NCBI GenBank assembly: GCA_000004985.1
Contig: GG738900.1
Origin: Naegleria gruberi
Lineage: Eukaryota
Direction: 5' to 3' (one strand)
DNA: 64,000 bases
Within the stretch, counting starts at the first letter, position 1. The number at the start of each line of letters is the position of its first letter. The notes under the pieces were generated by a model. It saw nothing but the letters and a program-made list of their open reading frames with translations. It searched no databases and was not told the origin of the DNA. The translations under genes were made by a program, and so were the position numbers. Below are positions 1,456 through 53,385 of this stretch, piece by piece.

Positions 1456-2897
1456 TTATAAGAGAAGTTTTCTCAGTGCAGTGAATGTTGCAACTTGATT
1501 ATTAGAAGCAAATTGTTTAACTTTCAGCAAACTTTGATAAAGAGCTCCAACAGTAATTCCCTGTTTGTTCAAATCTTCGACAAGAGGTGCTAATACTTCC
1601 ACTTCTTTTCTTTGGAATGAATAATAAACTAAACTCTTTTGAGCTAAAGAAGCAGAAATTACTTGAATGATTGCCTTCAACTCCACGTCACCCAAGAATG
1701 CCCCACATCCCCAGTTTCCAGTTGAAATCTTATCCATTGTCTTGGAAGATGAGAAACCAGAGAGAGATTTGATAATTTCTCTATCAATGGTTTCCTTTTC
1801 CCATTGTGAAAGGAAATTTAACTTATTGAATATCAAAGCATCAATAGCACTAGTTTGTTTCAATGAATTTCCATTTGAATCCTTATTCAAATCTATAAAA
1901 TTACCAGCATAATCCAAACTAAACGCATAACCCTTGTGTTTAGAATATTGCTCAGCACCAGTAATTAAAATAGATTCCCTATCACCCATGACATGACAGA
2001 ACAATCTGGCAATATTCATTTCAGGACACAATGAGAATTCAATTTCTTCTTGAACTATGTCGAATATTGATTAGTTGAATCACATATAGTATACATACCA
2101 CATCCAAATGAAATAGAAGCTCCTCCAATAAATTTGTTAGCAAAATCAATTTGAACTGCATCATGAGAATCAGCAATAGATCCCTGACTATTAACATGAA
2201 CGTCACATAGTGGCAAATCGCTATATTCAAAGCTTGGAATTGGAGTCAAATAATGTCTTGTAAATGAAATGCCAAGATTTGGATTTGATGAATAATCAGC
2301 AAAACTCTTATGAACTCTAGCAAAATAGTTCAATAACATCATTGTCTTGGCAAATTGAGGTCTAAAATTAGGGAATTTTCCATACATTTCATCATAATTA
2401 ATTGATGGGAAATATTTCCACAATGGATCATAACTGAGTCTATACCAAGTACAGAAAAAGCTATTTGCTAAAATACATGCAGCTCCAAGTTTAGAAATTG
2501 TTAAAGTTTTCGATTCTCCCTTCTTTAAATATTGAATTGATTGTTTAGGAAGATAATCCTCACTCTTTAATACTAAATGTGCAATAAATGGAATAACAGT
2601 ACTCAAGAAATCATCACTATTATAATCGTCAGGATAATATTGTTCCTCAAATAATTCCATAGCTTGATATAATACAAGATACTTGTCGGGATTTTCATCT
2701 TCCTTCTTAGGCTTTCCGAAATGATTCACCTTGATCGATTCAATAATATCAATTACTAATTGTTTGGTGATGGATTTCGGATCTTGTACCATAGGTTGTA
2801 ATTTTGATTGTATAAATGGCCATGATGAATATTCGTATGGAAATTGAACATGTTCGAGCGTGGCTTCGTGATCTTGTGTGACAATGATTTGGGACAT
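1456..2897 (-). CDS. PARG: Poly(ADP-ribose) glycohydrolase; exons 2099-2897 and 1456-2054 joined across a 44-nt GTATGT..TAG intron
   Basis: PARG catalytic signatures are present. The first exon ends DFANKFIGGA..GCG and the second continues VQEEIEF across the splice. Further downstream is TGNWGCGAFLGD. Splicing restores the GGG-X-QEE motif. Confidence 0.88.
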
Positions 2898-10136: not shown

Positions 10137-10916
10137 ATGTCAAACACCACAGAATCAGACAAACTTCACAATGATGAAGCAGTGTGCGTCTCGTCATCCG
10201 ATGAAGAAGAATTTATCAGCAAGGATAAGCAAAAAGGTCACAAGGGAGTATTTATTGAAATCGGAGAACGTATGAAAAGATATGAAGCCAATCAAGGATT
10301 ATTCTTGGATGAAACCAAGCCGTATATGGCCAGATTGGATGGTCATAAATTCTCAACATTTGCTCGTCCATTTAGGTATGTAATGATATGAATTGATTGT
10401 ATTAAATTAATTCTTGATATTCAGAAAGCCATATGATAACTTGTTGCATGCAGTCATGGTTCAAACAGCTGCTGATCTGTGGAACAATTTAATGATGNNN
10501 NNNNNNNNNNNNNNNNNNNNNNNNNNNNNNNNNNNNNNNNNNNNNNNATTTGGGCAGCATTCTATTCTACCAAGGAAATGCATGGATTGAAAGCTCGTCA
10601 AGTTGTTGAGAAATTGAAAGAGGATAAGAATGTTGATTGGAATGATTATCCAATGGGTTATCGTTACGGAACTTTTATTAAAAAGTCAAAATACGAAAAG
10701 AATGTCAAGAATCCAAAAACAGGTGAAGAATTGGTGTGTATGAGAACTAAATCAGAAGCATTTTCATTCAAATTGGAAGATTTCGATTCAAAATATATTG
10801 AATTGTTTAATCTCAAGACATGGAATGAAGTTTTTGAAAAGGGAATTTTGAATAGAGATGATTTAATTCTTGAGCCATTGTTTAGTGATTTGTTGGCTTC
10901 AGATAACAAAGAATAA
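10137..10916 (+). CDS. tRNA-His guanylyltransferase (Thg1/Thg1-like family); exons ~10137-10375, 10425-10497, gap, 10548-10916
   Basis: The segment YEANQGLFLDETKPYMARLDGHKFSTFARPF(R)KPYDNLLHAVMVQTAADLWNNL matches the Thg1 N-terminal core (RLDG..F..F, KP.D, M...A). One 49-nt GTATGT..CAG intron lies at 10376-10424. The CDS is interrupted by a 50-N assembly gap, so the downstream frame is inferred from the ORF. Confidence 0.6.
10498..10547. other. Assembly gap (50 N)
   Basis: Run of n characters in the sequence. Confidence 1.
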
Positions 10917-21500: not shown

Positions 21501-24382
21501 ACGACAAGGAAAAGCAAAAGATCTACATTGATCAACAAATTGCCGAAGTCATCGATAGAAAGAAGAAGAATACCAGCTTTGACTCAGATGCCGATCGTTT
21601 GATTTGTCTGATTGAAAACGCCAAAGCATTGGGAATTTATGAAGGCAAAATCCAAAAGACATTCGAAGAAAATACCAAAGATTTCATTACCAACAAATCC
21701 AACAATCACAATTTCAAGTCAGTTATTGAACAAACTAGAAAGGATATTGAGAGTAATCATTCTAAACTCAAGAAGGAAATTGAAAAGGTCAAGATTGGAG
21801 CTGAAGGTTATACCAACATTGATAAGGCCCTCGTTGATGAAGCTGAAAAGGTCCTCAAGGAAATTGAAAATATCAGAAAGTACCAAAAGAAATTGAATAC
21901 TATTCTTGATAAGACTGAAAAGGGAGTTTTCAAATTGGAAGAAGCTCAATATCTCATTGAAAAGTGTAAGAAAAAGTTGGCTAGTAAACGTAAAGGATAC
22001 GGAGAAACAAAGGACTATAGAGAGTTGACCAAGAGAGCTAACAATACATACAATGAACTCAAACGTGAAACCAAGAGAATTTACAAACAAGAAGCTTCAA
22101 ACATTGCTTTGACTTTGAAGAAACTTCTCGACGATCAACAATACGACATGTTGAGACAAAAACTTGCCCAAATCAATACTGCAGAAATCAAACCAGCTCT
22201 TGTTGCAGAACTTCCTGAACTTCAAAAGATCATTGATGAAGTTGTTGACAATTTGAATACCTTTGACTTTATGAGAAAGTTGTCTGGTGTTGGTGTTGAA
22301 AAGGAATACTCCTACAAGGATGTTGAAAAGGTTCTCAAATTTAAAGAATTTGCTGAGAGAAATCCACGTGAACTCTCTGAAGAACAACAAGAATCACTCG
22401 AAAAGATTGAAAAGAAGGTTGCTATGGAATTCAAACTCTACAATGAAATCCAAGAAGAAAAGAAGAGATTTAAGGATATTTCAGCTGAAATTTTCAATTT
22501 CCAAAAGGTTGAAATTTTATTAGAAAATGTTTCGGATATTCCTTCCTTGGAAGATGAAGCAATTGAATTAGCAAACATGGTGAGAATGAAGAAGACTTTC
22601 AACATGTATGTTAGAGAAATTCAAAAGAGAAAGGCAACAGCAAGAAGCTACGATGACATTTTGAGAAAGGCCTCAAAGGAGAACATTGATGTGAATATTC
22701 TTGTTGGTGCTGCAATGACTCAAAAGACAAACGATGTTCAATTGGAAGATGAGTTGAATGAATTGATTAGAAGAAAGGACTTGAAGAAATTACAAGATTT
22801 CATTGGTAAGAATTCAGATACCATGCCAAGAAATTTACTCAAAATGGCAAATGCCAAGTTGAACAATTTGAGAAGAGAAAATATGTCACCTCTTGAATTG
22901 ATTGAACAAATTAACAATGCTATTGACGTTCATGCTAAGGAAGAATTGTTAAATGCAATTGAAATTGCTAACAAATTATTGAACGAAGATATTGCTGAAC
23001 AATCCAAGACTCAACTTCAAAATGCCATCGAACGTGCCCAAGTAACCATCAAGGAAATTACAAACAAGGAAAATATCGAAAAGATCAAATTGTATCCACA
23101 AGAATTCATGAAAGAAGCTTTGCATTCTGATGATTTTGATGAAATTGATGTTGAAAATGATTCATTCAACATGACAAGAAAGCTTCGTCAAGTTCAAGGG
23201 CTCACCGATTACTCATCCTTGTCCAGAGAGGAAAAACAAAAGTACCTCTTTGAAATATTCCAAAGCAAGAGCATGAATTCAGATAATGAACTGTTACAAA
23301 GATTGACTTATCATGTCAACAAGCTCAGAGCTTTCTGTGAATCAAGAGAAGGCTCACATTCTGAAGAGGAAATGTATGTCGTCGAGAGAGACAATGTATT
23401 CGGCCAAAACTTGATCAAAGTTCTCTACGATATTTTGAATCACAAGACAAAGAAACGTTTCTTCTACTTGTCTAAGGATCCATATGAAATTCTGAGTGGT
23501 TTGAAGGCATCCAATGATCACATTGGTAAACTTGTCGATTCATTTGATTCTAACGAATTGGTTAAAAGATTGAAGAAGGAAAAGAAAAACGAAGCTCTTT
23601 CAGTCCAATTTATTTACTACCTCCTCTCTGAACGTTCTTTCATGTTTGTGGTTGAATTATTGTTAACATCTGACGCCTACCTAAAGGATTGCTACGAATT
23701 GGATTCTGTAGTTCTTGATAGAAGATACAGAGATGATATTTACCCACTCATGTCATTATTGGCCATGTTCCAATTCACATTCTCACTTAGATCATCAACT
23801 GATGTGTTGGCTGCTTCTCCAGTTTCCAGACTGAAAGGTATTGTCAGATCGATTGTACACTACTTTGTATCGAATAGAACTGAAACTAAATCTAATTTAG
23901 AACTCAGTGGCAAGGAAGATTGGGAGAAGAGTAACATTGGTGAGCTGATTCGTAAAAAGTTGGTACCAACAGTTGCAGAAATATTCAATCACAAGTTCAA
24001 GAGTGGTTTCATTTCAAAATATCACATTTGGCAATTCATTCAAGATGTTGCTGAACAAAAGAGAATCAGTGCTATTGACATTGGAGGTATCAATTTACCA
24101 ACTGCAATTGATTTTGTGAACGAGGCAGTTGATAATCCTTTAGACTTTGACTTTAAATTCGAGACATTTATTTGTTACGCTTTGAATAGAGGTCTTATGG
24201 CTGAATTCTTTGAAAGTATCTTGAAGGACAGATCATTCCTAGCTAAGTATTATGACCAATATGCTCTAGTATTAGATAAGGATGTTATCGGTAACACTGT
24301 CAAATATTTCGAAATCATTTCTCAATTACCATTCGATTTAATAGAATCCTCTGAAAAGTATAACCAAAAATATAACCAATAA
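18533..24382 (+). CDS. Very large PH-domain plus coiled-coil protein (about 1850 aa); exon 1 18533-18583, 120-nt intron, exon 2 18704-24382
   Basis: Exon 1 (MTKDTIKVDFRLHQSGN) splices in frame to LIEGFLKKKGKNLINRAPLRYVIVRKDGLYYFD...FVFFTENKDSYTNWFNEVKKW, a classic PH domain. Two further PH-like modules follow (LLVLGNRNLYIID.., LFAGLLGKK..RALYVFD). More than 1000 aa of heptad-rich helical sequence follow. Confidence 0.7.
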
Positions 24383-24386
24383 AAAT

Positions 24387-25158
24387 TTAACTTAATGCTC
24401 CTGATTTTGCTAATTTATCAGCCATTTCATTTCCATAAATATTTGTGTGACCTGCAACATAGGTAAATTTAACATCTGTCTTTTTGTTAATTTCAGCAAT
24501 TAATTCTCTAAATAAATCCAAATTTTGAATGTCTTTTTTAGAAGCAGTCTTCCAATCATTCTTTTCCCAAACAAATCTCCACAATGTCATTGCATTTATC
24601 ACATATTTTGAATCTGTCAAAATTTCCACATATTCCTCATTTGGAAGTAATTTAAGAGCAATTGCTGCTGCCTTAATTTCAGCTCTTTGATTAGAAGGTG
24701 GACCTTCTAAATATCCACTATAATTCAAAGGATCATCATCTCCAAAAAAGCAGCCAACTCCAGCAATACTATTTTCACTTCCATTAGCAAAACAACATCC
24801 ATCTGTATAAACTTGTCTATATACAGCACCACTCTTCACCTTCTTCTTTTTAGGAGATGCTGTTTCACTATCATTCGATGAAGAAGCCACAGTCGAGGAA
24901 GAAGAAGCACCTTCCGAAGCTGAACTCTTTCTCTTGAGTGATTTTTCAGATGATTCCGAAGAAGCAACTTCAACAACAGGTGATGCTGATTTACTCTCCT
25001 CATCAATAAACTTTTGTGCTTGTTCCATACTGGTGAATGATTTGAATTTTGCTCCAGAGAAAGCCTTCACTTGAGCTTCACATTCTGGCCAGGTTTTATA
25101 AATTCCAGGAGTTCTTCCCTTTGCGACTGCATAATATTTACGTTGTTGTGGAGGCATG
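24387..25158 (-). CDS. RNH1: Ribonuclease H1 with N-terminal hybrid-binding domain
   Basis: Hybrid-binding domain YYAVAKGRTPGIYKTWPECEAQVKAFSGAKFKSF. Catalytic domain with DGCCFANG, SNQRAEIKAA and HTNIYGNEMADKLAK. The track ORF extends to 25397, but the likely start is Met at 25158 (MPPQQRKYYAVAKG). Confidence 0.85.
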
Positions 25159-25495
25159 GTTAGGCAATTAATGTTCGTATTGGCCAATAATAATAAATTA
25201 TTCTTCTTCTTATTCAATAATAGACAATAATTAATATCTCGTTTCAACTCTACGGAATTATTTCCAACAAGCAATGATGAGGAAGAGGAATTTTGTACAC
25301 TCAATAATAATGGAGAACTCTCCAAAAAATTGCAATTTCTTATTGTTGTGGATGTTTGTTTAAATTTAAAAGAAAAAACTCTCAATACGTTTTTCATTCA
25401 ATTTTTTTCAAATTTAATTTTGATTTATTTTGATTTTTCTTGAGAAGAAATAATTGGAATTCTTTTGATTTCAATAAATAATGAATGGATTTTAT

Positions 25496-48144: not shown

Positions 48145-50845
48145 ATGAGTGTACCAAGGTATCGCCCAGCAGGAGGTAGTCTCACTTCGAGGTTAAATCC
48201 CTCGTTCTTTGCCCTTGCTGACAGATACCCAAGTAGTGCGGAGGAGGAAGATGAAGCAAATGAAGATGAAATTGAGGAAGAGGAGTTTGCTTTTGCTTTG
48301 CCAAAGACTGGTACTGATTTTTTGTTAGGACCTAATCCTGTACATCTTAATTCATTGTCAGCAATACCTGAACCGGTATACAATGTTGACCCAACAACAG
48401 CTAGTAGGATGATGTTACAGGATTCAGCTAGGTTAACAGGAAAAAGACCTTATCATAAAGTTGTATATGATTGTTTTGGAGTTGGTCATGGAGACGAACA
48501 TTTTGATGAGGAATCATTATTTCGATTTCTAGAAACAAATCCAATACCTTTAAATTTAGGAACAAATTGTCAGAGACAAAATCTGCCAAAAGTGACTAGC
48601 ATGGTTAATTCCGATTCTTTATTATTCGAGTCTAGGTTTGAGAGTGGAAACCTTAGAAGAGCTGTTCAAATTTACGATTATGAATATGATTTAATTTTAA
48701 AATTTGATGTTGAAACAAATGGACATACTCAATGGTTCTATTTCTCAATTCAAAATGCAAAAAGAGGAAGAAAGTACAAATTTAATATTGTAAATTATTT
48801 GAAACAAGATAGTTTATATAATCATGGCATGCTGCCATTATTTTATTCAACCAATGATGCTTTAACAAAAGGGCAAGGTTGGATCAGGTCCGGAACAGAT
48901 GTTTGTTATTATAGGAATAACATCAAACGAAAAGGAGGATCTTACTACACTCTTACATTTACCTTTGAGGTTGCACATGATAATGATGTTTGCTATTTTG
49001 CCTATTCATACCCTTACACATACACAAATTTACAAAATTATTTAAATAATTTGGAAAAAGACAAAGTGAGGAGTCAATATTTAAGAAGAAGAGTTCTATG
49101 TAATGATCTTGCTGGAAATTCATGTGATGCATTAACCATAACTTCTTTTGCTGGAGATCCTTCTGCTCTCAAAACGAGAAAAGGAATTGTTTTAACGGCA
49201 AGAGTACACCCTGGAGAATCCAACTCGAGTTGGATTATTAAGGGAGTCATCGACTTTTTAACTGGTTCGAGTATTGAATCGAAAGTATTACGAGAAAATT
49301 TCATTTTCAAAATAGTTCCAATGTTGAATCCAGATGGAGTCATAAATGGAAACTATAGATGTGCTCTTTCAGGATCTGATTTGAATAGAAAATGGCATAA
49401 TCCAAACATCAAAACTCATCCAACAATTTTCCACACAAAAAAGATGGTTTTACAATTCCAAAAAGAACGAGAAGTAGTTTTATTTTGTGATTTTCACGGA
49501 CATAGTAGGAAGAAGAACATGTTCATGTATGGATGTACTGTTTCGAAATATGGTGTGGAGAGATTACTACCCAAAATTTTCCCAAGACTTCTATGGAAGA
49601 TTTCACCTCACTTTTCATTTAAGGATTGTCATTTCGGCAAACAAAAAGGAAAGGATACAACCGCAAGAGTTGTGATGCATAAGAGTGGAGTGAAGAATGC
49701 ATTTACATTGGAGGCATCATTCTGTGGACCAGACACTGGAATACACATGGGAAGACAATTCACTTGTAAACATTTCGAGCAGATGGGCCACTACTTTTGC
49801 CAGGGTATACTTGAGTTTTGTAATCCAGAACAAACTCAAGTCAATCTAATTATCAAAGAATTAGATTTATTATTTCCAGAAAAATACAAAGATGAAGATT
49901 CCACAAGAGAGTAAGTATTTGACATTATCCAGACAAAATTAATGCCCAATTAATCACAGCAAATATTCCAGCTCAGAAGAGGATGATGATGAGCCAGTTC
50001 CACCTCCTCAGCTCATTGAGAAACTTTCCCAAATCCCTACCCCTAGAGTGTTATCCTCAAGGAGAGGATCTAATGCTTCCGAATACTCTCAATCAGTGTA
50101 CAGTTATTCCTCGGTTGGCCGAAGTAGCCAACACTCTAGTACCACTTCAATTAACTACTCCAAACCAACAATAACAGTTCCAGTAATTATTCCACCAAAA
50201 TTGAATCATTCCAATCCTCAATCAGCTCCTCCATCAGCTATCTCAGTAGGTAATACTCCAAGGACAGCTAGTTCTGCCAAAGTAATTCATCCAACACCAC
50301 CACCAGTGCCACCCAAAGATTCTGATAAGAGACCAAACCTCCTTAAGAGAAGTCAATCCTTTTCTAATAATAATCAGCTTCCAAAATCAAATAAGAATGA
50401 GAAACCAGTTGAAAAACAGAAAAAAGTGACAAAGACAGTTGTGCAAGCAAAGAAAAAACGAATTGTCAGACCAAATAATACAGCTCGCTCAATGTACAAA
50501 CCAAGACCTTACACGCCTCCAGCTATTGATATCAATCCATTTTCCTACGATACTGACAAGATAATTCAATCCTTCAAGACGACTGACAACACAAATTATG
50601 ATCCAATCATGGAGCTCATTGAAAAAGTGGAATCCATTAAAAATCTAAGAAAGGAACGAGCTATTGAAAATTTGAAACAAGCAAAATTGAAACCAATGCA
50701 AGCCAAACCTTTCAACAAATTTGCAGCCTCTCCCTCTCTCAAACCCTCAGATAATTTATTCTCAATTACGAATTCCACAACAATTAGCACGACTTCAACC
50801 AATAGCAGCCAGCTCTTTCCTAGTATTGTTTATAAAAAACGATAA
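48145..50845 (+). CDS. Cytosolic carboxypeptidase (Nna1/AGBL family M14 metallocarboxypeptidase); exons ~48145-49910 and 49960-50845 (49-nt intron)
   Basis: The Nna1 N-domain hallmark FESGNL. M14 zinc-ligand and substrate motifs HPGESNSSWI, GSDLNRKW and FCDFHGHS. The TAA at 49912 overlaps a GTAAGT donor. Splicing continues in frame into the Ser/Pro-rich ORF at 50048-50845, for a total of about 885 aa. Confidence 0.8.
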
Positions 50846-50849
50846 AAAA

Positions 50850-52475
50850 ATGCTCGGACGCTCAACTTCGTATGTTTTTATTTTGCGATTTTTCATCATC
50901 AACAACAATAGAAACGGAAAGGCTTTTAGCAAACTCTTGAAAGGATTTGCTTCTCAACAAGTTAGAAACAAGACAATTAACGTACGTAAACAACAATAAT
51001 TTCCGTGTTTTTAAATTTTTTAGTTGAATTATAGAGGAAAAGCAACTATTCGTGATGGATTGAGTGGTTCCACCACTGAAGTCGGTACCCCAGTCAATGA
51101 TTCCGTATGTAATATTTCTATTAGTATTAGAATATATTTATTATTATTATTTTCTACAGATGTCTGTCTCTGTTTGGAGCAAGGGTTTCACAAGATGTTT
51201 GCAAATTAATCGTCCACGTGAATCTAACAGAATTACTTCTGAAGTCGCTAGGGATTTATTGCATCAATTTAAGGTTTGTTTCTCATCACAATATGATGAT
51301 GATAATTATTATTCTTCATCAACAACAGGTTATGGATACCAACCCAATTATTAATCTTATTACTTTGTCTGGAATTGGAAATGGTTTTTTGAGTGCTGGA
51401 TATGATTTTAGAGAACTTCAAAATTTGATGGATAAGGGTGATTATGAAACTGTTTACTCATTGGTCAGAGATACTCACAAACTTGCATACTATGCTGCTA
51501 ACTGTGAAACTCCAACAATGAGTGTTATTAATGGTCTTATGCGTATGTTTCAATTATTATTAGAGTTTTTTAACTTGTTTAAATAGTCGGTCCTGGTACA
51601 TCTTTGGGTACTTCTGCAAACTATGTTATTGCCACTCCTGGTTCTCTCTTCTCTGCTGCTGACTCTGCATATGGTTACTTCCCAGATTGTGGTGTTACCA
51701 TGTTGCTTTCACGAGTAAATCAAAAGCATGAAGGTCTCGGAACTTTCCTCGGTCTGACAGGTGCTCAAGTCAAATCAAGTGATTTGGTGTAAGTTTCTAA
51801 TTTTAATTTTTTTAATTAACTATTTAAAGTAATTGTGGAATTGCCACTTCATTCGGTATGGAAAGCATGTCTCAATACATTGCTGAACGTCTTCTTGAAG
51901 TTCAAACCGGAGCTAACCAAGATGATATTCATAACTGCATTGTGGAATCTACTGAATCTGATGTTCCTGCTTTGTCTTTCGCTTTTGAATTATATAAGAT
52001 TAAGGAACACTTCTCAAATAAGAAATCTGTCGAAGAAATTATACAATCACTCAAAAATACTATTACTGATTCTACAAAGACAAAACCTGAAAGAGATTGG
52101 GCTGCTAATATTTTGGAAAATATGAATCAATTATCACCATTGAGTCTGAAGGTTACTTTCAGAGCTATTCAAGAATGTGACCAAGGATTAGGTTTGGATG
52201 AAACTTATCAAAGAGATTATCGTATTGCTTCTCGATTGATCAAATCTAAGGATTTTAAACAAGGTGTTAATTCTGTTTTGACTGGAATTGAACCTGTTTG
52301 GGAATTTGAATCAGTTGAAAAAGTTCCTGATAGTGTTGTTGATTCCCTCTTTACTCCATTGAGTTTCGAAAAGGATGTTGATTGCGAACTCCAATTACCT
52401 GAAGAAGTTTTCCTGGAAGATCAAATTCTTTTCCAAATCAAAAAGAACCAATCCGTCCAAATTGCTAAACAATAA
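50850..52475 (+). CDS. HIBCH: 3-hydroxyisobutyryl-CoA hydrolase, mitochondrial (crotonase fold); exons 50850-50981, 51024-51104, 51160-51273, 51329-51542, 51587-51788, 51830-52475
   Basis: N-terminal presequence MLGRSTSYVFILRFF. GPGTSLG..ATPGSLFSAADSAYGYFPDCGVTMLLSR matches HIBCH [53 protein letters not shown] matches the C-terminal HIBCH helix. The five introns are 42-56 nt and each exon joins in frame. Confidence 0.8.
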
Positions 52476-52514: not shown

Positions 52515-53385
52515 TTAGTGAACTTTTTTCCTTTCCACTCGGTAAGTATGAACATAAAATTGAAGAAATAAGAGCAAGAAACTTAGAATTACACCTTGTC
52601 CAAGCCATAATACCTCTTCACTACCACTACATTTGACTTCTGCCACATATAAATAATAGAGATACAATTGAGGAACTACTAGATCAAGTACGAATTGACC
52701 TATTTGAAGTATTGTAACATATTTCTTCCAAGTTACATTAATTCCAATTGCCGCCCTTGAATAATAATAGTACATGATTACATGAATATAGCCATTCGTC
52801 ACAACTGCAACCCACTATAATAACAAGATGTTAGTGATTAAAAGAGTATAAAAAACATACCTGAAGAGACATCTTATCACAAAGAGCGACATAAACCAAG
52901 CCAAGTGTCACTATATGATGGTAGACGTGCAAAAAAGTTAGTGGTCTCCTTTTCAAAATCATCAATACTGTATCTATCAACTCGTAATGTTTAGATAAAT
53001 AAAAGATATAAGTCCAAAAGTTTAATGGACCAACAGTTGTCGATGTTTGTGGATCACAAAATACAGACTCTAGAGAATATCCATTTCTAATATAAATCCG
53101 TATTGATTCCAATAAATTGCCAGTTGCCATAAACAAGCTAAGTATACAAAGAAATAAATTGTGTAAATAGGTAAACCTTTTCAATTCAAAAACCCTTTCC
53201 TCCTTCCGATATTTTAAATTAATTATAAATTGAAAAAGGTATATAAATATTGTATAGGCTATTAATGAAAAGAATGGATATCTCCAGTGACTCAGAGGTG
53301 TTTTTCCATATTCAAAACTAAAATTCTTTACGTAATCGGGATATAACGAATAAATGTTATCCAATATTTCAACAAATTGTGACAT
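52515..53385 (-). CDS. ELO-family fatty-acid elongase; exons 52861-53385 and 52515-52814 (46-nt intron)
   Basis: The histidine box LTFLHVYHHIV and NGYIHVIMYYYYS motifs. Multiple TM helices. Confidence 0.85.

What the first reader, a model, noticed from the sequence alone, without database searches (positions are those of the whole stretch)
48145..50852. Cytosolic carboxypeptidase (tubulin deglutamylase family) with long S/P-rich tail, ending 4 bp before the next gene start
FESGNL plus HPGE and DLNR motifs identify an Nna1/CCP enzyme. These are normally tied to tubulin polyglutamylation and to cilia or centrioles. After a 49-nt intron whose donor overlaps an apparent stop, the CDS continues for about 295 aa of Ser/Pro/Thr-rich sequence. 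Its TAA (50843-50845) is 4 bp from the ATG (50850) of the mitochondrial HIBCH gene on the same strand. The CCP 3'UTR must therefore overlap the HIBCH coding region, or the two are co-transcribed.
Basis: partly seen in the sequence, partly recalled or inferred. Interest (0 to 1): 0.6.

Follow-up and report, generated by a model that had tools for sequence, protein, structure and literature searches.

The report
Two abutting Naegleria genes, mis-annotated as one
A flagellum-related carboxypeptidase gene of the amoeba Naegleria gruberi ends 4 bases before the start codon of an unrelated mitochondrial gene, the layout is conserved across the genus, and public annotations wrongly merge the two; this is extreme genome compaction, not a new kind of system.

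Summary
The window is Naegleria gruberi NEG-M. The CCP gene runs from ATG 48145 through a 49-nt intron (49911-49959) to TAA 50843-45. It encodes 883 aa: an M14 carboxypeptidase with the CCP N-domain, plus a 295-aa tail. Conserved blocks of the tail change mainly at third codon positions, so the tail is translated.

Four bases later (50850) a HIBCH/mS47-like gene starts with a 20-nt mini-exon and a 42-nt phase-2 intron. This start is genuine:
- The ATGCT start, mini-exon and intron phase recur in N. fowleri, N. lovaniensis, a fourth Naegleria lineage and Willaertia.
- N. fowleri has CTG where the N. lovaniensis annotation places its downstream start.
- In Willaertia the two genes lie about 100 kb apart.

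Stop-to-ATG gaps are 4, 2, 2 and 35 nt. RefSeq models in N. gruberi (NAEGRDRAFT_72811, 1316 aa) and N. fowleri fuse the genes through three different, non-conserved splices, so they are probably artefacts.

Best reading: two independent genes with no spacer. I infer that CCP is polyadenylated about 15-25 nt past its stop, inside the HIBCH mini-exon, and that the HIBCH promoter lies in the CCP tail. No transcript data could be obtained. Interest is modest.

The parts
48145..49910 (+). CCP exon 1: acidic N-terminus, CCP N-domain (FESGNL 48637-48654) and M14 catalytic domain (HPGE 49207-49218, DLNR 49378-49389, FHGHS 49492-49506, TLEAS 49705-49719)
   Evidence: Identical to the N-terminal part of XP_002672081.1.
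49911..49959 (+). CCP intron, 49 nt, phase 2, GTAAGT...CACAG. If the intron is retained, an immediate in-frame TAA follows (49912-49914).
   Evidence: Same position and phase in N. lovaniensis (76 nt, as implied by gene span versus CDS length), N. fowleri and L006.
49960..50845 (+). CCP exon 2: 295-aa S/P/K/T/N-rich tail. Conserved blocks are SSSEEDDDEP (49967-49996), LKRSQSFS (50342-50365) and YKPRPYTPP...LRKER (50495-50659). The last ~60 aa are poorly conserved and end in KKR. TAA is at 50843-50845.
   Evidence: No Pfam family matches the tail.
50828..50895 (+). Junction island. It holds the A-rich leader ...TATAAAAAACGATAAAAAAATG, which carries the CCP stop inside GATAAA; the HIBCH-like start codon and 20-nt mini-exon; and the U-rich start of HIBCH intron 1. 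I infer that it also holds the CCP poly(A) signal, cleavage zone and downstream element, and the HIBCH-like 5' leader.
   Evidence: The equivalent ~60 nt are 97-100% identical between N. lovaniensis and N. fowleri, while flanks are 27-67% identical. The leader motif is also present in Willaertia and L006. Poly(A) rules for N. gruberi come from PMC11529991. No stable RNA fold.
50850..50869 (+). HIBCH/mS47-like gene, exon 1 (mini-exon, MLGRST-S)
   Evidence: Conserved ATGCT start and phase-2 intron in five lineages.
50870..50911 (+). HIBCH-like intron 1, 42 nt, GTATGT...AATAG. It is in frame and stop-free, but the homologous introns (59-192 nt) are not.
50912..52475 (+). HIBCH-like exons 2-7 (50912-50981, 51024-51104, 51160-51273, 51329-51542, 51587-51788, 51830-52475). 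Introns are 41-55 nt. The product is 448 aa with an ECH_2 domain.
   Evidence: Identical to the C-terminal part of XP_002672081.1.
50828..50921 (+). The 94-nt 'intron' (GTTTAT...GAAAG) that the JGI/RefSeq model NAEGRDRAFT_72811 uses to skip the CCP stop and the HIBCH start. It is probably not a real intron.
   Evidence: The N. fowleri models use different bridging splices. None is conserved across species.

Best explanation
Two independent genes lie head to tail with essentially no spacer.

Gene 1 is a catalytically intact cytosolic carboxypeptidase (M14D family, closest to homologues labelled CCP2/3). Its 295-aa, mostly disordered tail carries a conserved C-terminal helix motif.

Gene 2 is a mitochondrial HIBCH/mS47-like crotonase-fold protein. 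Its start codon, N-terminal presequence, 17-26-nt mini-exon and phase-2 first intron predate the juxtaposition.

In the Naegleria lineage the CCP reading frame runs up to the TAA inside gene 2's conserved A-rich leader (...ACGATAAAAAAATG). Three steps are inferred, not shown:
- CCP mRNA is cleaved and polyadenylated about 15-25 nt past its stop, inside the mini-exon. The signal would be the stop-overlapping GAUAAA, with the U-rich start of intron 1 as downstream element.
- The HIBCH-like mRNA starts from its own promoter and leader, embedded in the poorly conserved last codons of CCP.
- The two mRNAs therefore overlap by only tens of nucleotides, and each protein is translated from its own capped mRNA.

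The single-gene CCP-HIBCH models in RefSeq (N. gruberi XP_002672081.1, N. fowleri XP_044560809.1 and CAG4717458.1) are prediction artefacts caused by the missing spacer.
For: Shown:
- The in-frame CCP stop is present in four Naegleria lineages, always after [KR]KR.
- The ATGCT start, mini-exon and phase-2 intron are conserved in five lineages.
- N. fowleri has CTG where the N. lovaniensis model places its downstream ATG, so only the upstream ATG can serve there.
- The N-terminus looks like a presequence: 8-9 K+R and 0-1 D+E in the first 40-47 residues. It aligns with Willaertia MLNLSGKGVKK.... A presequence must be N-terminal to work.
- In Willaertia the CCP and the HIBCH-like gene are separate genes about 100 kb apart. 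The HIBCH-like gene keeps the same leader, aaaaaacgtaaaaaaaaATGCT, 80 nt after an ELO gene.
- The three fused models bridge the stop in three different ways with non-conserved splice sites. CCP and HIBCH frames differ by +1 in N. gruberi and by -1 in N. fowleri and N. lovaniensis.
- N. gruberi gene models are reported to contain erroneous fusions (10.64898/2026.08.18.745565). [quoted passage not shown]
- The ~60-nt junction island is 97-100% identical between N. lovaniensis and N. fowleri, whereas neighbouring coding and intron sequence is 27-67% identical.

Supporting the inferred 3' end:
- N. gruberi direct RNA sequencing gives a median 3'UTR of 39 nt and places the poly(A) signal 15-20 nt before cleavage. 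It finds a downstream U-rich element. About 11-13% of stop codons overlap AAUAAA, and those sites have a median 3'UTR of 22 nt (PMC11529991).
- Convergent genes in this window have stops only 4-49 nt apart.
Against: - No transcript evidence for this locus could be obtained.
- The stop-overlapping hexamer is GAUAAA, not AAUAAA. PMC11529991 reports that hexamer identity is the main determinant in N. gruberi.
- There is no canonical AATAAA within about 180 nt downstream of the stop and no exact UGUA just upstream.
- No promoter motif for Naegleria is known, so a promoter inside the CCP tail is pure inference.
- Two Augustus-type N. fowleri annotations chose the same tail donor (AGCAT|GTTGCC), which could reflect spliced-read support.
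Confidence: 0.68

Rival explanations
1. Bicistronic mRNA. CCP and the HIBCH-like gene are co-transcribed from the CCP promoter. The second cistron is translated by termination-reinitiation, or by internal initiation on the unstructured A-rich leader.
For: - The stop-to-start distance is 2-4 nt in three lineages.
- There is no spacer for a conventional promoter.
- The junction is unusually conserved and unstructured.
- Naegleria belongs to Discoba, the supergroup that includes the polycistronic Euglenozoa.
Against: - Reinitiation after an 883-codon ORF is not expected without a dedicated upstream element.
- The ~90 nt upstream of the stop are the least conserved part of the region between N. 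lovaniensis and N. fowleri (27-50% identity). They contain no TGGGA-type motif (read).
- In the L006 lineage the gap is 35 nt, so tight coupling is not required.
- Heterolobosea show about 2 genes per directon and no polycistron signature.
- The same leader serves a stand-alone gene in Willaertia.
Confidence: 0.12
2. Genuine fusion protein. As annotated in RefSeq, splicing (or ribosomal slippage on the A-runs) removes the CCP stop and yields a CCP-HIBCH polypeptide of about 1316 aa, at least as a minor isoform.
For: - Three annotation pipelines produced fused models in two species.
- Both N. fowleri models share one donor.
- The HIBCH frame is open for 43 codons upstream of its ATG in N. gruberi.
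- A-runs flank the stop.
Against: - The bridging splices differ in every model and are not conserved.
- The required frame change is +1 in N. gruberi and -1 in N. fowleri and N. lovaniensis.
- The stop, the Met and the presequence are conserved.
- The N. lovaniensis annotation keeps two genes, and the genes are unlinked in Willaertia.
- Erroneous fusions are a documented problem of N. gruberi models.
Confidence: 0.08
3. CCP ends at 49914 and the intron is not spliced. The 49960-50845 ORF would then be a separate gene or an untranslated region.
For: - The unspliced reading has an in-frame TAA.
- Prokaryote-style gene callers list the tail as a separate 265-aa ORF.
Against: - The intron position, phase and GTAAGT donor are conserved in four lineages.
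- The tail frame continues exactly across the splice in all of them.
- The tail ORF has no conserved ATG of its own.
- An immediate TAA on retention is automatic for any phase-2 GTAAGT intron.
- Willaertia CCP carries the homologous tail helix in one gene model.
Confidence: 0.04

Closest known systems
Cytosolic carboxypeptidases (MEROPS M14D; Nna1/CCP1-6, AGBL genes), tubulin deglutamylases
   Same: - The CCP-specific N-domain with FESGNL and the M14 domain with HPGE, DLNR, FHGH and TLEAS are all present.
- The catalytic core is 45-59% identical to protist and animal CCPs.
- The host organism builds basal bodies and flagella (PMC4819266).
   Different: - The 295-aa C-terminal tail has no Pfam family and is shared only with other heteroloboseans.
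- It is not CCP5-type: 156 bits to CCP5 against about 554-560 bits to homologues labelled CCP2/AGBL3.
- Polyglutamylation antibody staining was not seen in Naegleria (PMC9036621), so the in vivo substrate is open.
Ultrashort 3'UTRs and 'dual-use' stop codon / poly(A) signals in compact protist genomes (Giardia; N. gruberi, PMC11529991)
   Same: - The stop codon lies inside an AAUAAA-like hexamer.
- A CA dinucleotide lies about 15-18 nt downstream of the hexamer, followed by a U-rich stretch.
- The N. gruberi median 3'UTR is 39 nt, and 22 nt at stop codons that overlap AAUAAA.
   Different: - The hexamer is GAUAAA, not AAUAAA.
- The presumed cleavage zone and downstream element are the next gene's first coding exon and intron donor. 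Such an arrangement did not appear in the passages of that paper that I read.
Overlapping or abutting tandem transcription units of highly compacted eukaryotic genomes (microsporidia, nucleomorphs, Giardia). This comparison rests on my own knowledge.
   Same: Same-strand neighbours without room for separate UTRs and promoter, and gene predictors that tend to fuse such pairs.
   Different: - N. gruberi is only moderately compact. Other tandem pairs in this window keep 74-112 nt.
- This particular junction has been kept since before the split of N. gruberi from N. fowleri and N. lovaniensis.
HIBCH / mitoribosomal protein mS47 (crotonase fold, Pfam ECH_2)
   Same: - ECH_2 matches at E 3e-75.
- The best solved relatives are mS47 chains of mitoribosomes (9evs_f 1.5e-34, 6xyw_BE 3e-34) and human HIBCH (3bpt, 2e-34).
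   Different: - Only about 30% identical to plant and animal HIBCH.
- N. gruberi has AADSA where N. fowleri and Willaertia have a P-E motif at the presumed catalytic Glu.

Membership tests
Cytosolic carboxypeptidase (M14D, Nna1/CCP) | M14 zinc-carboxypeptidase domain with HxxE...H zinc ligands | tested here: met
   PF00246 at E 2.1e-10, above the gathering score. HPGE at 355-358 and FHGHS at 450-454.
Cytosolic carboxypeptidase (M14D, Nna1/CCP) | CCP-specific N-terminal beta-sandwich domain with the FESGNL motif | tested here: met
   PF18027 at E 1e-9 over residues 161-287. FESGNL at 165-170.
Cytosolic carboxypeptidase (M14D, Nna1/CCP) | Catalytic Glu and substrate-binding Arg (TLEAS and DLNR motifs) | tested here: met
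   Both motifs are present and conserved in all heterolobosean orthologues.
Cytosolic carboxypeptidase (M14D, Nna1/CCP) | Deglutamylase activity on tubulin or other polyglutamylated substrates | not testable with these tools
   Requires an enzyme assay. No polyglutamylation antibody staining was seen in Naegleria (PMC9036621).
CCP5 / AGBL5 subtype | Closest similarity to CCP5 rather than to other CCP clades | tested here: not met
   Human CCP5 (8v3m) scores 156 bits with large gaps. Homologues labelled CCP2, AGBL3 or 'CCP 2/3' score 554-560 bits at 47-58% identity. No formal phylogeny was made.
HIBCH / mS47 (ECH_2 crotonase) | ECH_2 domain over the full length | tested here: met
   PF16113 at E 3.4e-75, residues 69-408 against profile positions 2-335 of 335.
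HIBCH / mS47 (ECH_2 crotonase) | Catalytic Glu of active HIBCH | tested here: inconclusive
   N. gruberi has AADSA where N. fowleri and Willaertia have PEAS and PEVS. Assignment of the catalytic position rests on my memory of human HIBCH.
Single fused CCP-HIBCH gene (as in RefSeq XP_002672081.1) | A continuous reading frame, or a conserved splice, linking the two halves | tested here: not met
   An in-frame stop is conserved in four lineages. The three models use three different bridges. The frame offset is +1 in one lineage and -1 in others.
Termination-reinitiation bicistron (calicivirus/influenza B type) | Stop and restart codons within a few nucleotides of each other | tested here: inconclusive
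   The gap is 2-4 nt in three lineages but 35 nt in the fourth.
Termination-reinitiation bicistron (calicivirus/influenza B type) | Conserved upstream element (TURBS-like, 18S-complementary) within about 90 nt of the stop | tested here: not met
   The upstream ~90 nt are 27-50% identical between N. lovaniensis and N. fowleri. No TGGGA is present.
Euglenozoa-type polycistronic unit | A transcript spanning both genes, resolved by SL trans-splicing | not testable with these tools
   No transcript data were available. Heterolobosea are reported to lack polycistron signatures.
Dual-use stop codon / poly(A) signal (N. gruberi, Giardia) | AAUAAA overlapping the stop codon | tested here: not met
   The hexamer over the stop is GAUAAA, a one-base variant conserved in all four Naegleria lineages.
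Dual-use stop codon / poly(A) signal (N. gruberi, Giardia) | Cleavage 15-20 nt downstream of the signal, followed by a U-rich element | not testable with these tools
   The sequence fits: CA lies 17-18 nt after the hexamer, then GUAUGUUUUUAUUUUG. No 3'-end reads were available.

The most novel reading that the evidence does not exclude
The pair is a conserved bicistronic unit. A single CCP-HIBCH/mS47 mRNA would have its second cistron translated by stop-start coupling or by initiation on the unstructured A-rich leader. That would be the first operon-like gene pair in Heterolobosea, a lineage in the same supergroup (Discoba) as the polycistronic Euglenozoa.
Probability: 0.1. Interest if true: 0.7.

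Novelty: new member of a known kind. Interest (0 to 1): 0.3.

Why it matters
- Database correction. RefSeq and UniProt carry chimeric CCP-HIBCH proteins for N. gruberi (XP_002672081.1 / D2VUW6) and N. fowleri (XP_044560809.1, CAG4717458.1). The N. lovaniensis HIBCH-like model is probably 12 aa short at its N-terminus. Such chimeras distort orthology, domain-architecture ('Rosetta stone') and expression analyses of a flagellar-differentiation gene and a mitochondrial gene.
- Gene expression in a compact genome. The locus is a clean, conserved test case for placing promoter, start codon, splice donor, stop codon and poly(A) signals within about 60 nt. Existing N. gruberi direct-RNA data could resolve it at once.
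- Limits. The finding does not reveal a new enzyme or a new system.

Tried and rejected
- Transcript evidence. The protein clusters for this locus contain only genomic or metagenomic ORFs and the fused RefSeq models, with no RNA-derived contigs.
- Literature. There was no hit for NAEGRDRAFT_72811. Supplements of the N. gruberi RNA-seq and poly(A) papers are not held. The Naegleria differentiation microarray paper (PMC2987438) is not held.
- More lineages. A metagenome scan with a HIBCH-like alignment found only relatives at 24-28% identity, not Naegleria orthologues.
- RNA structure at the junction. Nothing was significant; z-scores ranged from -1.5 to +1.4 in five lineages.
- De novo 3'-flank motif search in the window. 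Only about 2-fold enrichment of AATAA/ATAAA/TGTAA over 36 ORF ends, too few to use.
- MAFFT alignment of the junction DNA failed because the intron lengths differ. I replaced it with a pairwise global alignment.
- An apparent second tight tandem pair (1456-2019 and 2055-2897, minus strand) turned out to be two exons of one PARG gene.
- Frameshift fusion on the A-runs was considered. I set it aside because the required direction differs between species.
Full report
**Observation**

- An ORF starts at ATG 48145. It carries FESGNL (48637-48654), HPGE (49207-49218) and DLNR (49378-49389).
- It reaches GAG TAA at 49912-49914, where a GTAAGT donor begins at 49911.
- A 49-nt, phase-2 intron ends at CACAG (49959).
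- The frame then continues for 295 residues to TAA 50843-50845. Residue counts in this tail are S 44, P 35, K 32, T 22 and N 22.
- After AAAA, an ATG follows at 50850 on the same strand.

**Organism and public annotation**

The window is Naegleria gruberi NEG-M.
- The unspliced ORF is identical to a metagenome ORF. That ORF clusters with XP_002672081.1 / NAEGRDRAFT_72811, a 1316-aa 'Peptidase M14 domain-containing protein'.
- That RefSeq protein consists of my spliced CCP up to ...SSQLFPSI, joined directly to AFSKLLKG... of the downstream gene. The model removes 50828-50921 as a 94-nt intron (GTTTAT...GAAAG). This skips the CCP stop, the downstream start codon and the mini-exon.
- N. fowleri has two further fused models. 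FDP41_004772 (1342 aa) inserts a 50-nt 'intron' in the tail to change frame, and then reads through KKIKMLSRHSFV. CAG4717458 (1316 aa) splices from the same tail donor to exon 2 of the downstream gene.
- N. lovaniensis is annotated as two genes of 887 aa and 439 aa.

**The CCP**

- Pfam finds the CCP N-domain (PF18027, E 1e-9) and Peptidase_M14 (PF00246, E 2e-10).
- The zinc ligands, the substrate-binding Arg and the catalytic Glu motifs are all present.
- Among solved structures the best match is human CCP5 (1e-44, 156 bits). Most top hits carry no subtype label. The three that do are labelled CCP2, AGBL3 or 'CCP 2/3' and score 554-560 bits at 47-58% identity. The CCP5 suggestion is therefore not favoured. 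I made no phylogeny.
- The intron lies at the same codon and in the same phase in N. lovaniensis, N. fowleri and a fourth lineage from metagenomes (L006/L007).
- The tail aligns across all of these and, for its C-terminal helix (..[IL][ML][ED]LIEKV[EQ].I[KQ]..RKER), also with Willaertia.
- In the YKPRP...RKER block, N. lovaniensis and N. fowleri differ at codon positions 1/2/3 by 7/2/17. The tail is therefore translated in this frame and belongs to the CCP.
- The apparent stop at the donor is automatic for any phase-2 GTAAGT intron.

**The downstream gene and its start**

- With six short introns (41-55 nt) the downstream gene encodes 448 aa.
- It has a full-length ECH_2 domain (E 3e-75).
- Its best solved relatives are mitoribosomal mS47 chains and human HIBCH, at equal scores.
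- Exon 1 is only 20 nt (50850-50869). It is followed by a 42-nt phase-2 intron.
- The same structure is present elsewhere: ATGCTCTCTCGCCATTCCTTTGT|GTAGGT in N. lovaniensis and N. fowleri, 2 nt after the CCP stop; ATGCTCGGTTCTTCAGT|GTACGT in L006; and ATGCTAAATCTTTCAGGCAAGGGAGT|GTAAGT in Willaertia.
- Where the N. lovaniensis annotation starts its protein (ATG at L001:10948), N. fowleri has CTG. In N. fowleri only the upstream ATG can serve.
- The resulting N-termini are basic and nearly free of acidic residues, and they align with one another. This is as expected for a mitochondrial presequence, which must sit at the N-terminus.

**History of the junction**

- In Willaertia the CCP and the HIBCH-like gene lie about 100 kb apart on one contig. 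The HIBCH-like gene there follows an ELO gene by 80 nt.
- Even so, its leader reads ttttaaaaaacgtaaaaaaaaATGCT, close to N. gruberi's ttataaaaaacgataaaaaaATGCT. The A-rich leader with its TAA therefore belongs to the HIBCH-like gene.
- In Naegleria the CCP frame simply ends on that TAA.
- Stop-to-ATG gaps are 4 nt (N. gruberi), 2 nt (N. fowleri, N. lovaniensis) and 35 nt (L006). In L006 what looks like a 31-nt duplication created an earlier stop, while AAGAAAACGATAAAAAAATG was kept.
- Between N. lovaniensis and N. fowleri the last ~90 nt of CCP are 27-50% identical, and intron 1 is about 43-67% identical. The ~60 nt around the junction are 97-100% identical. That exceeds the conserved coding block of the tail, so overlapping signals probably constrain it.

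**Mechanism**

- Direct RNA sequencing of N. gruberi (PMC11529991) gave a median 3'UTR of 39 nt.
- The same study found AAUAAA 15-20 nt before cleavage, with an upstream UGUA and a downstream U-rich element.
- About 11-13% of stop codons overlap AAUAAA, and those sites have a median 3'UTR of 22 nt.
- Here the stop lies in GAUAAA, which is conserved in all four Naegleria lineages. A CA dinucleotide follows 17-18 nt after the hexamer in N. gruberi and 14-15 nt after it in N. lovaniensis and N. fowleri. The start of intron 1 is U-rich (GUAUGUUUUUAUUUUG; GGUUUUUUC).
- I therefore infer that CCP mRNA ends inside the mini-exon. I also infer that the HIBCH-like mRNA starts from its own leader within the last CCP codons.
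- These two steps are inference. GAUAAA is not the canonical hexamer, and I could obtain no transcript data for the locus.
- The window shows that such crowding is normal for 3' ends: convergent stops lie 4, 14, 27, 39 and 49 nt apart. It is exceptional for tandem pairs. For example, CPSF73 to RNase H1 is 98 nt, and the others are 74-112 nt.

**Rivals**

- A bicistronic mRNA with reinitiation is disfavoured. The region upstream of the stop is unconserved and lacks a TURBS-like motif. One lineage has a 35-nt gap. The junction has no RNA structure. Heterolobosea show no polycistron signature.
- A real fusion protein is disfavoured. The stop, the Met and the presequence are conserved. The bridging splices are non-conserved and mutually inconsistent. 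The frame offsets run in opposite directions in different species. The genes are independent in Willaertia. Erroneous fusions in N. gruberi models are documented.
- Termination of CCP at 49914 is excluded by the comparative evidence above.

**Verdict**

What it reveals is an ordinary CCP and an ordinary mitochondrial crotonase-fold gene, packed with no spacer since before the Naegleria species diverged. Several public gene models wrongly merge them. The junction is a useful test case for transcript-end signals in a compact genome, and it is resolvable with data that already exist. I rate novelty as a new member of a known kind, and interest at about 0.3.

Noticed in passing
window 24380-24389: A very large plus-strand ORF (to 24382) and the minus-strand RNase H1 gene (24387-25397) converge with stop codons only 4 nt apart (TAA aaat TTA). 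Their 3'UTRs must overlap antisense or be nearly absent. Other convergent pairs have stops 14 nt (58679/58694), 27 nt (44191/44219), 39 nt (52475/52515) and 49 nt (55934/55984) apart.
   Followed up: partly
window 50850-52475: The 'HIBCH' gene matches mitoribosomal mS47 chains (9evs_f, 6xyw_BE, 6yw5_88) as well as it matches human HIBCH (3bpt). N. gruberi has AADSA where N. fowleri and Willaertia have P-E at the presumed catalytic Glu. It may be the mitoribosomal protein mS47 rather than, or as well as, an active hydrolase.
   Followed up: partly
L001 10743-10948 (N. lovaniensis PYSW02000027.1): The annotated 439-aa ECH gene starts at an internal ATG (10948). The conserved mini-exon 2 nt after the CCP stop (10743-10765), spliced over a 169-nt intron, adds MLSRHSFVQNKN in frame. 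The model is probably truncated at its N-terminus.
   Followed up: yes
L006 4085-4139 (metagenome ERZ27315067) and L007: This fourth Naegleria-like lineage carries what looks like a 31-nt tandem duplication (AGCAAGAAAACGcTAA ... AGCAAGAAAACGaTAA). It moves the CCP stop to 35 nt before the HIBCH-like ATG and leaves the ancestral junction sequence intact.
   Followed up: partly
window 48145-50845; PMC9036621: Velle et al. 2022 saw no staining with a polyglutamylation antibody in Naegleria amoebae or flagellates. Even so, this CCP keeps all catalytic motifs and is conserved across the genus, so its real substrate is an open question.
   Followed up: no
window 52515-53385 (minus strand): An ELO-family fatty-acid elongase gene (HVYHH motif) converges on the HIBCH-like stop with 39 nt between the stop codons. 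The order CCP, HIBCH-like, ELO(-), cytochrome b5 is conserved in N. lovaniensis and N. fowleri. In Willaertia, ELO lies upstream of the HIBCH-like gene on the same strand.
   Followed up: partly
window, upstream of many ATGs (e.g. 2897, 27745, 36384, 57246 on the minus strand; 8052, 32241, 53914, 55434 on the plus strand): Most clear start codons in the window are preceded by a run of 5-9 A (aaaaaaaaATG). The HIBCH-like start (cgataaaaaaATG) and the CCP start (ctgtaaaaATG) fit this context. This suggests very short A-rich leaders as a general N. gruberi feature.
   Followed up: no
window 1456-2897 (minus strand): Two ORFs separated by 35 nt are the two halves of one PARG (poly-ADP-ribose glycohydrolase) gene split by a short intron. 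They are not a second tight gene pair.
   Followed up: yes
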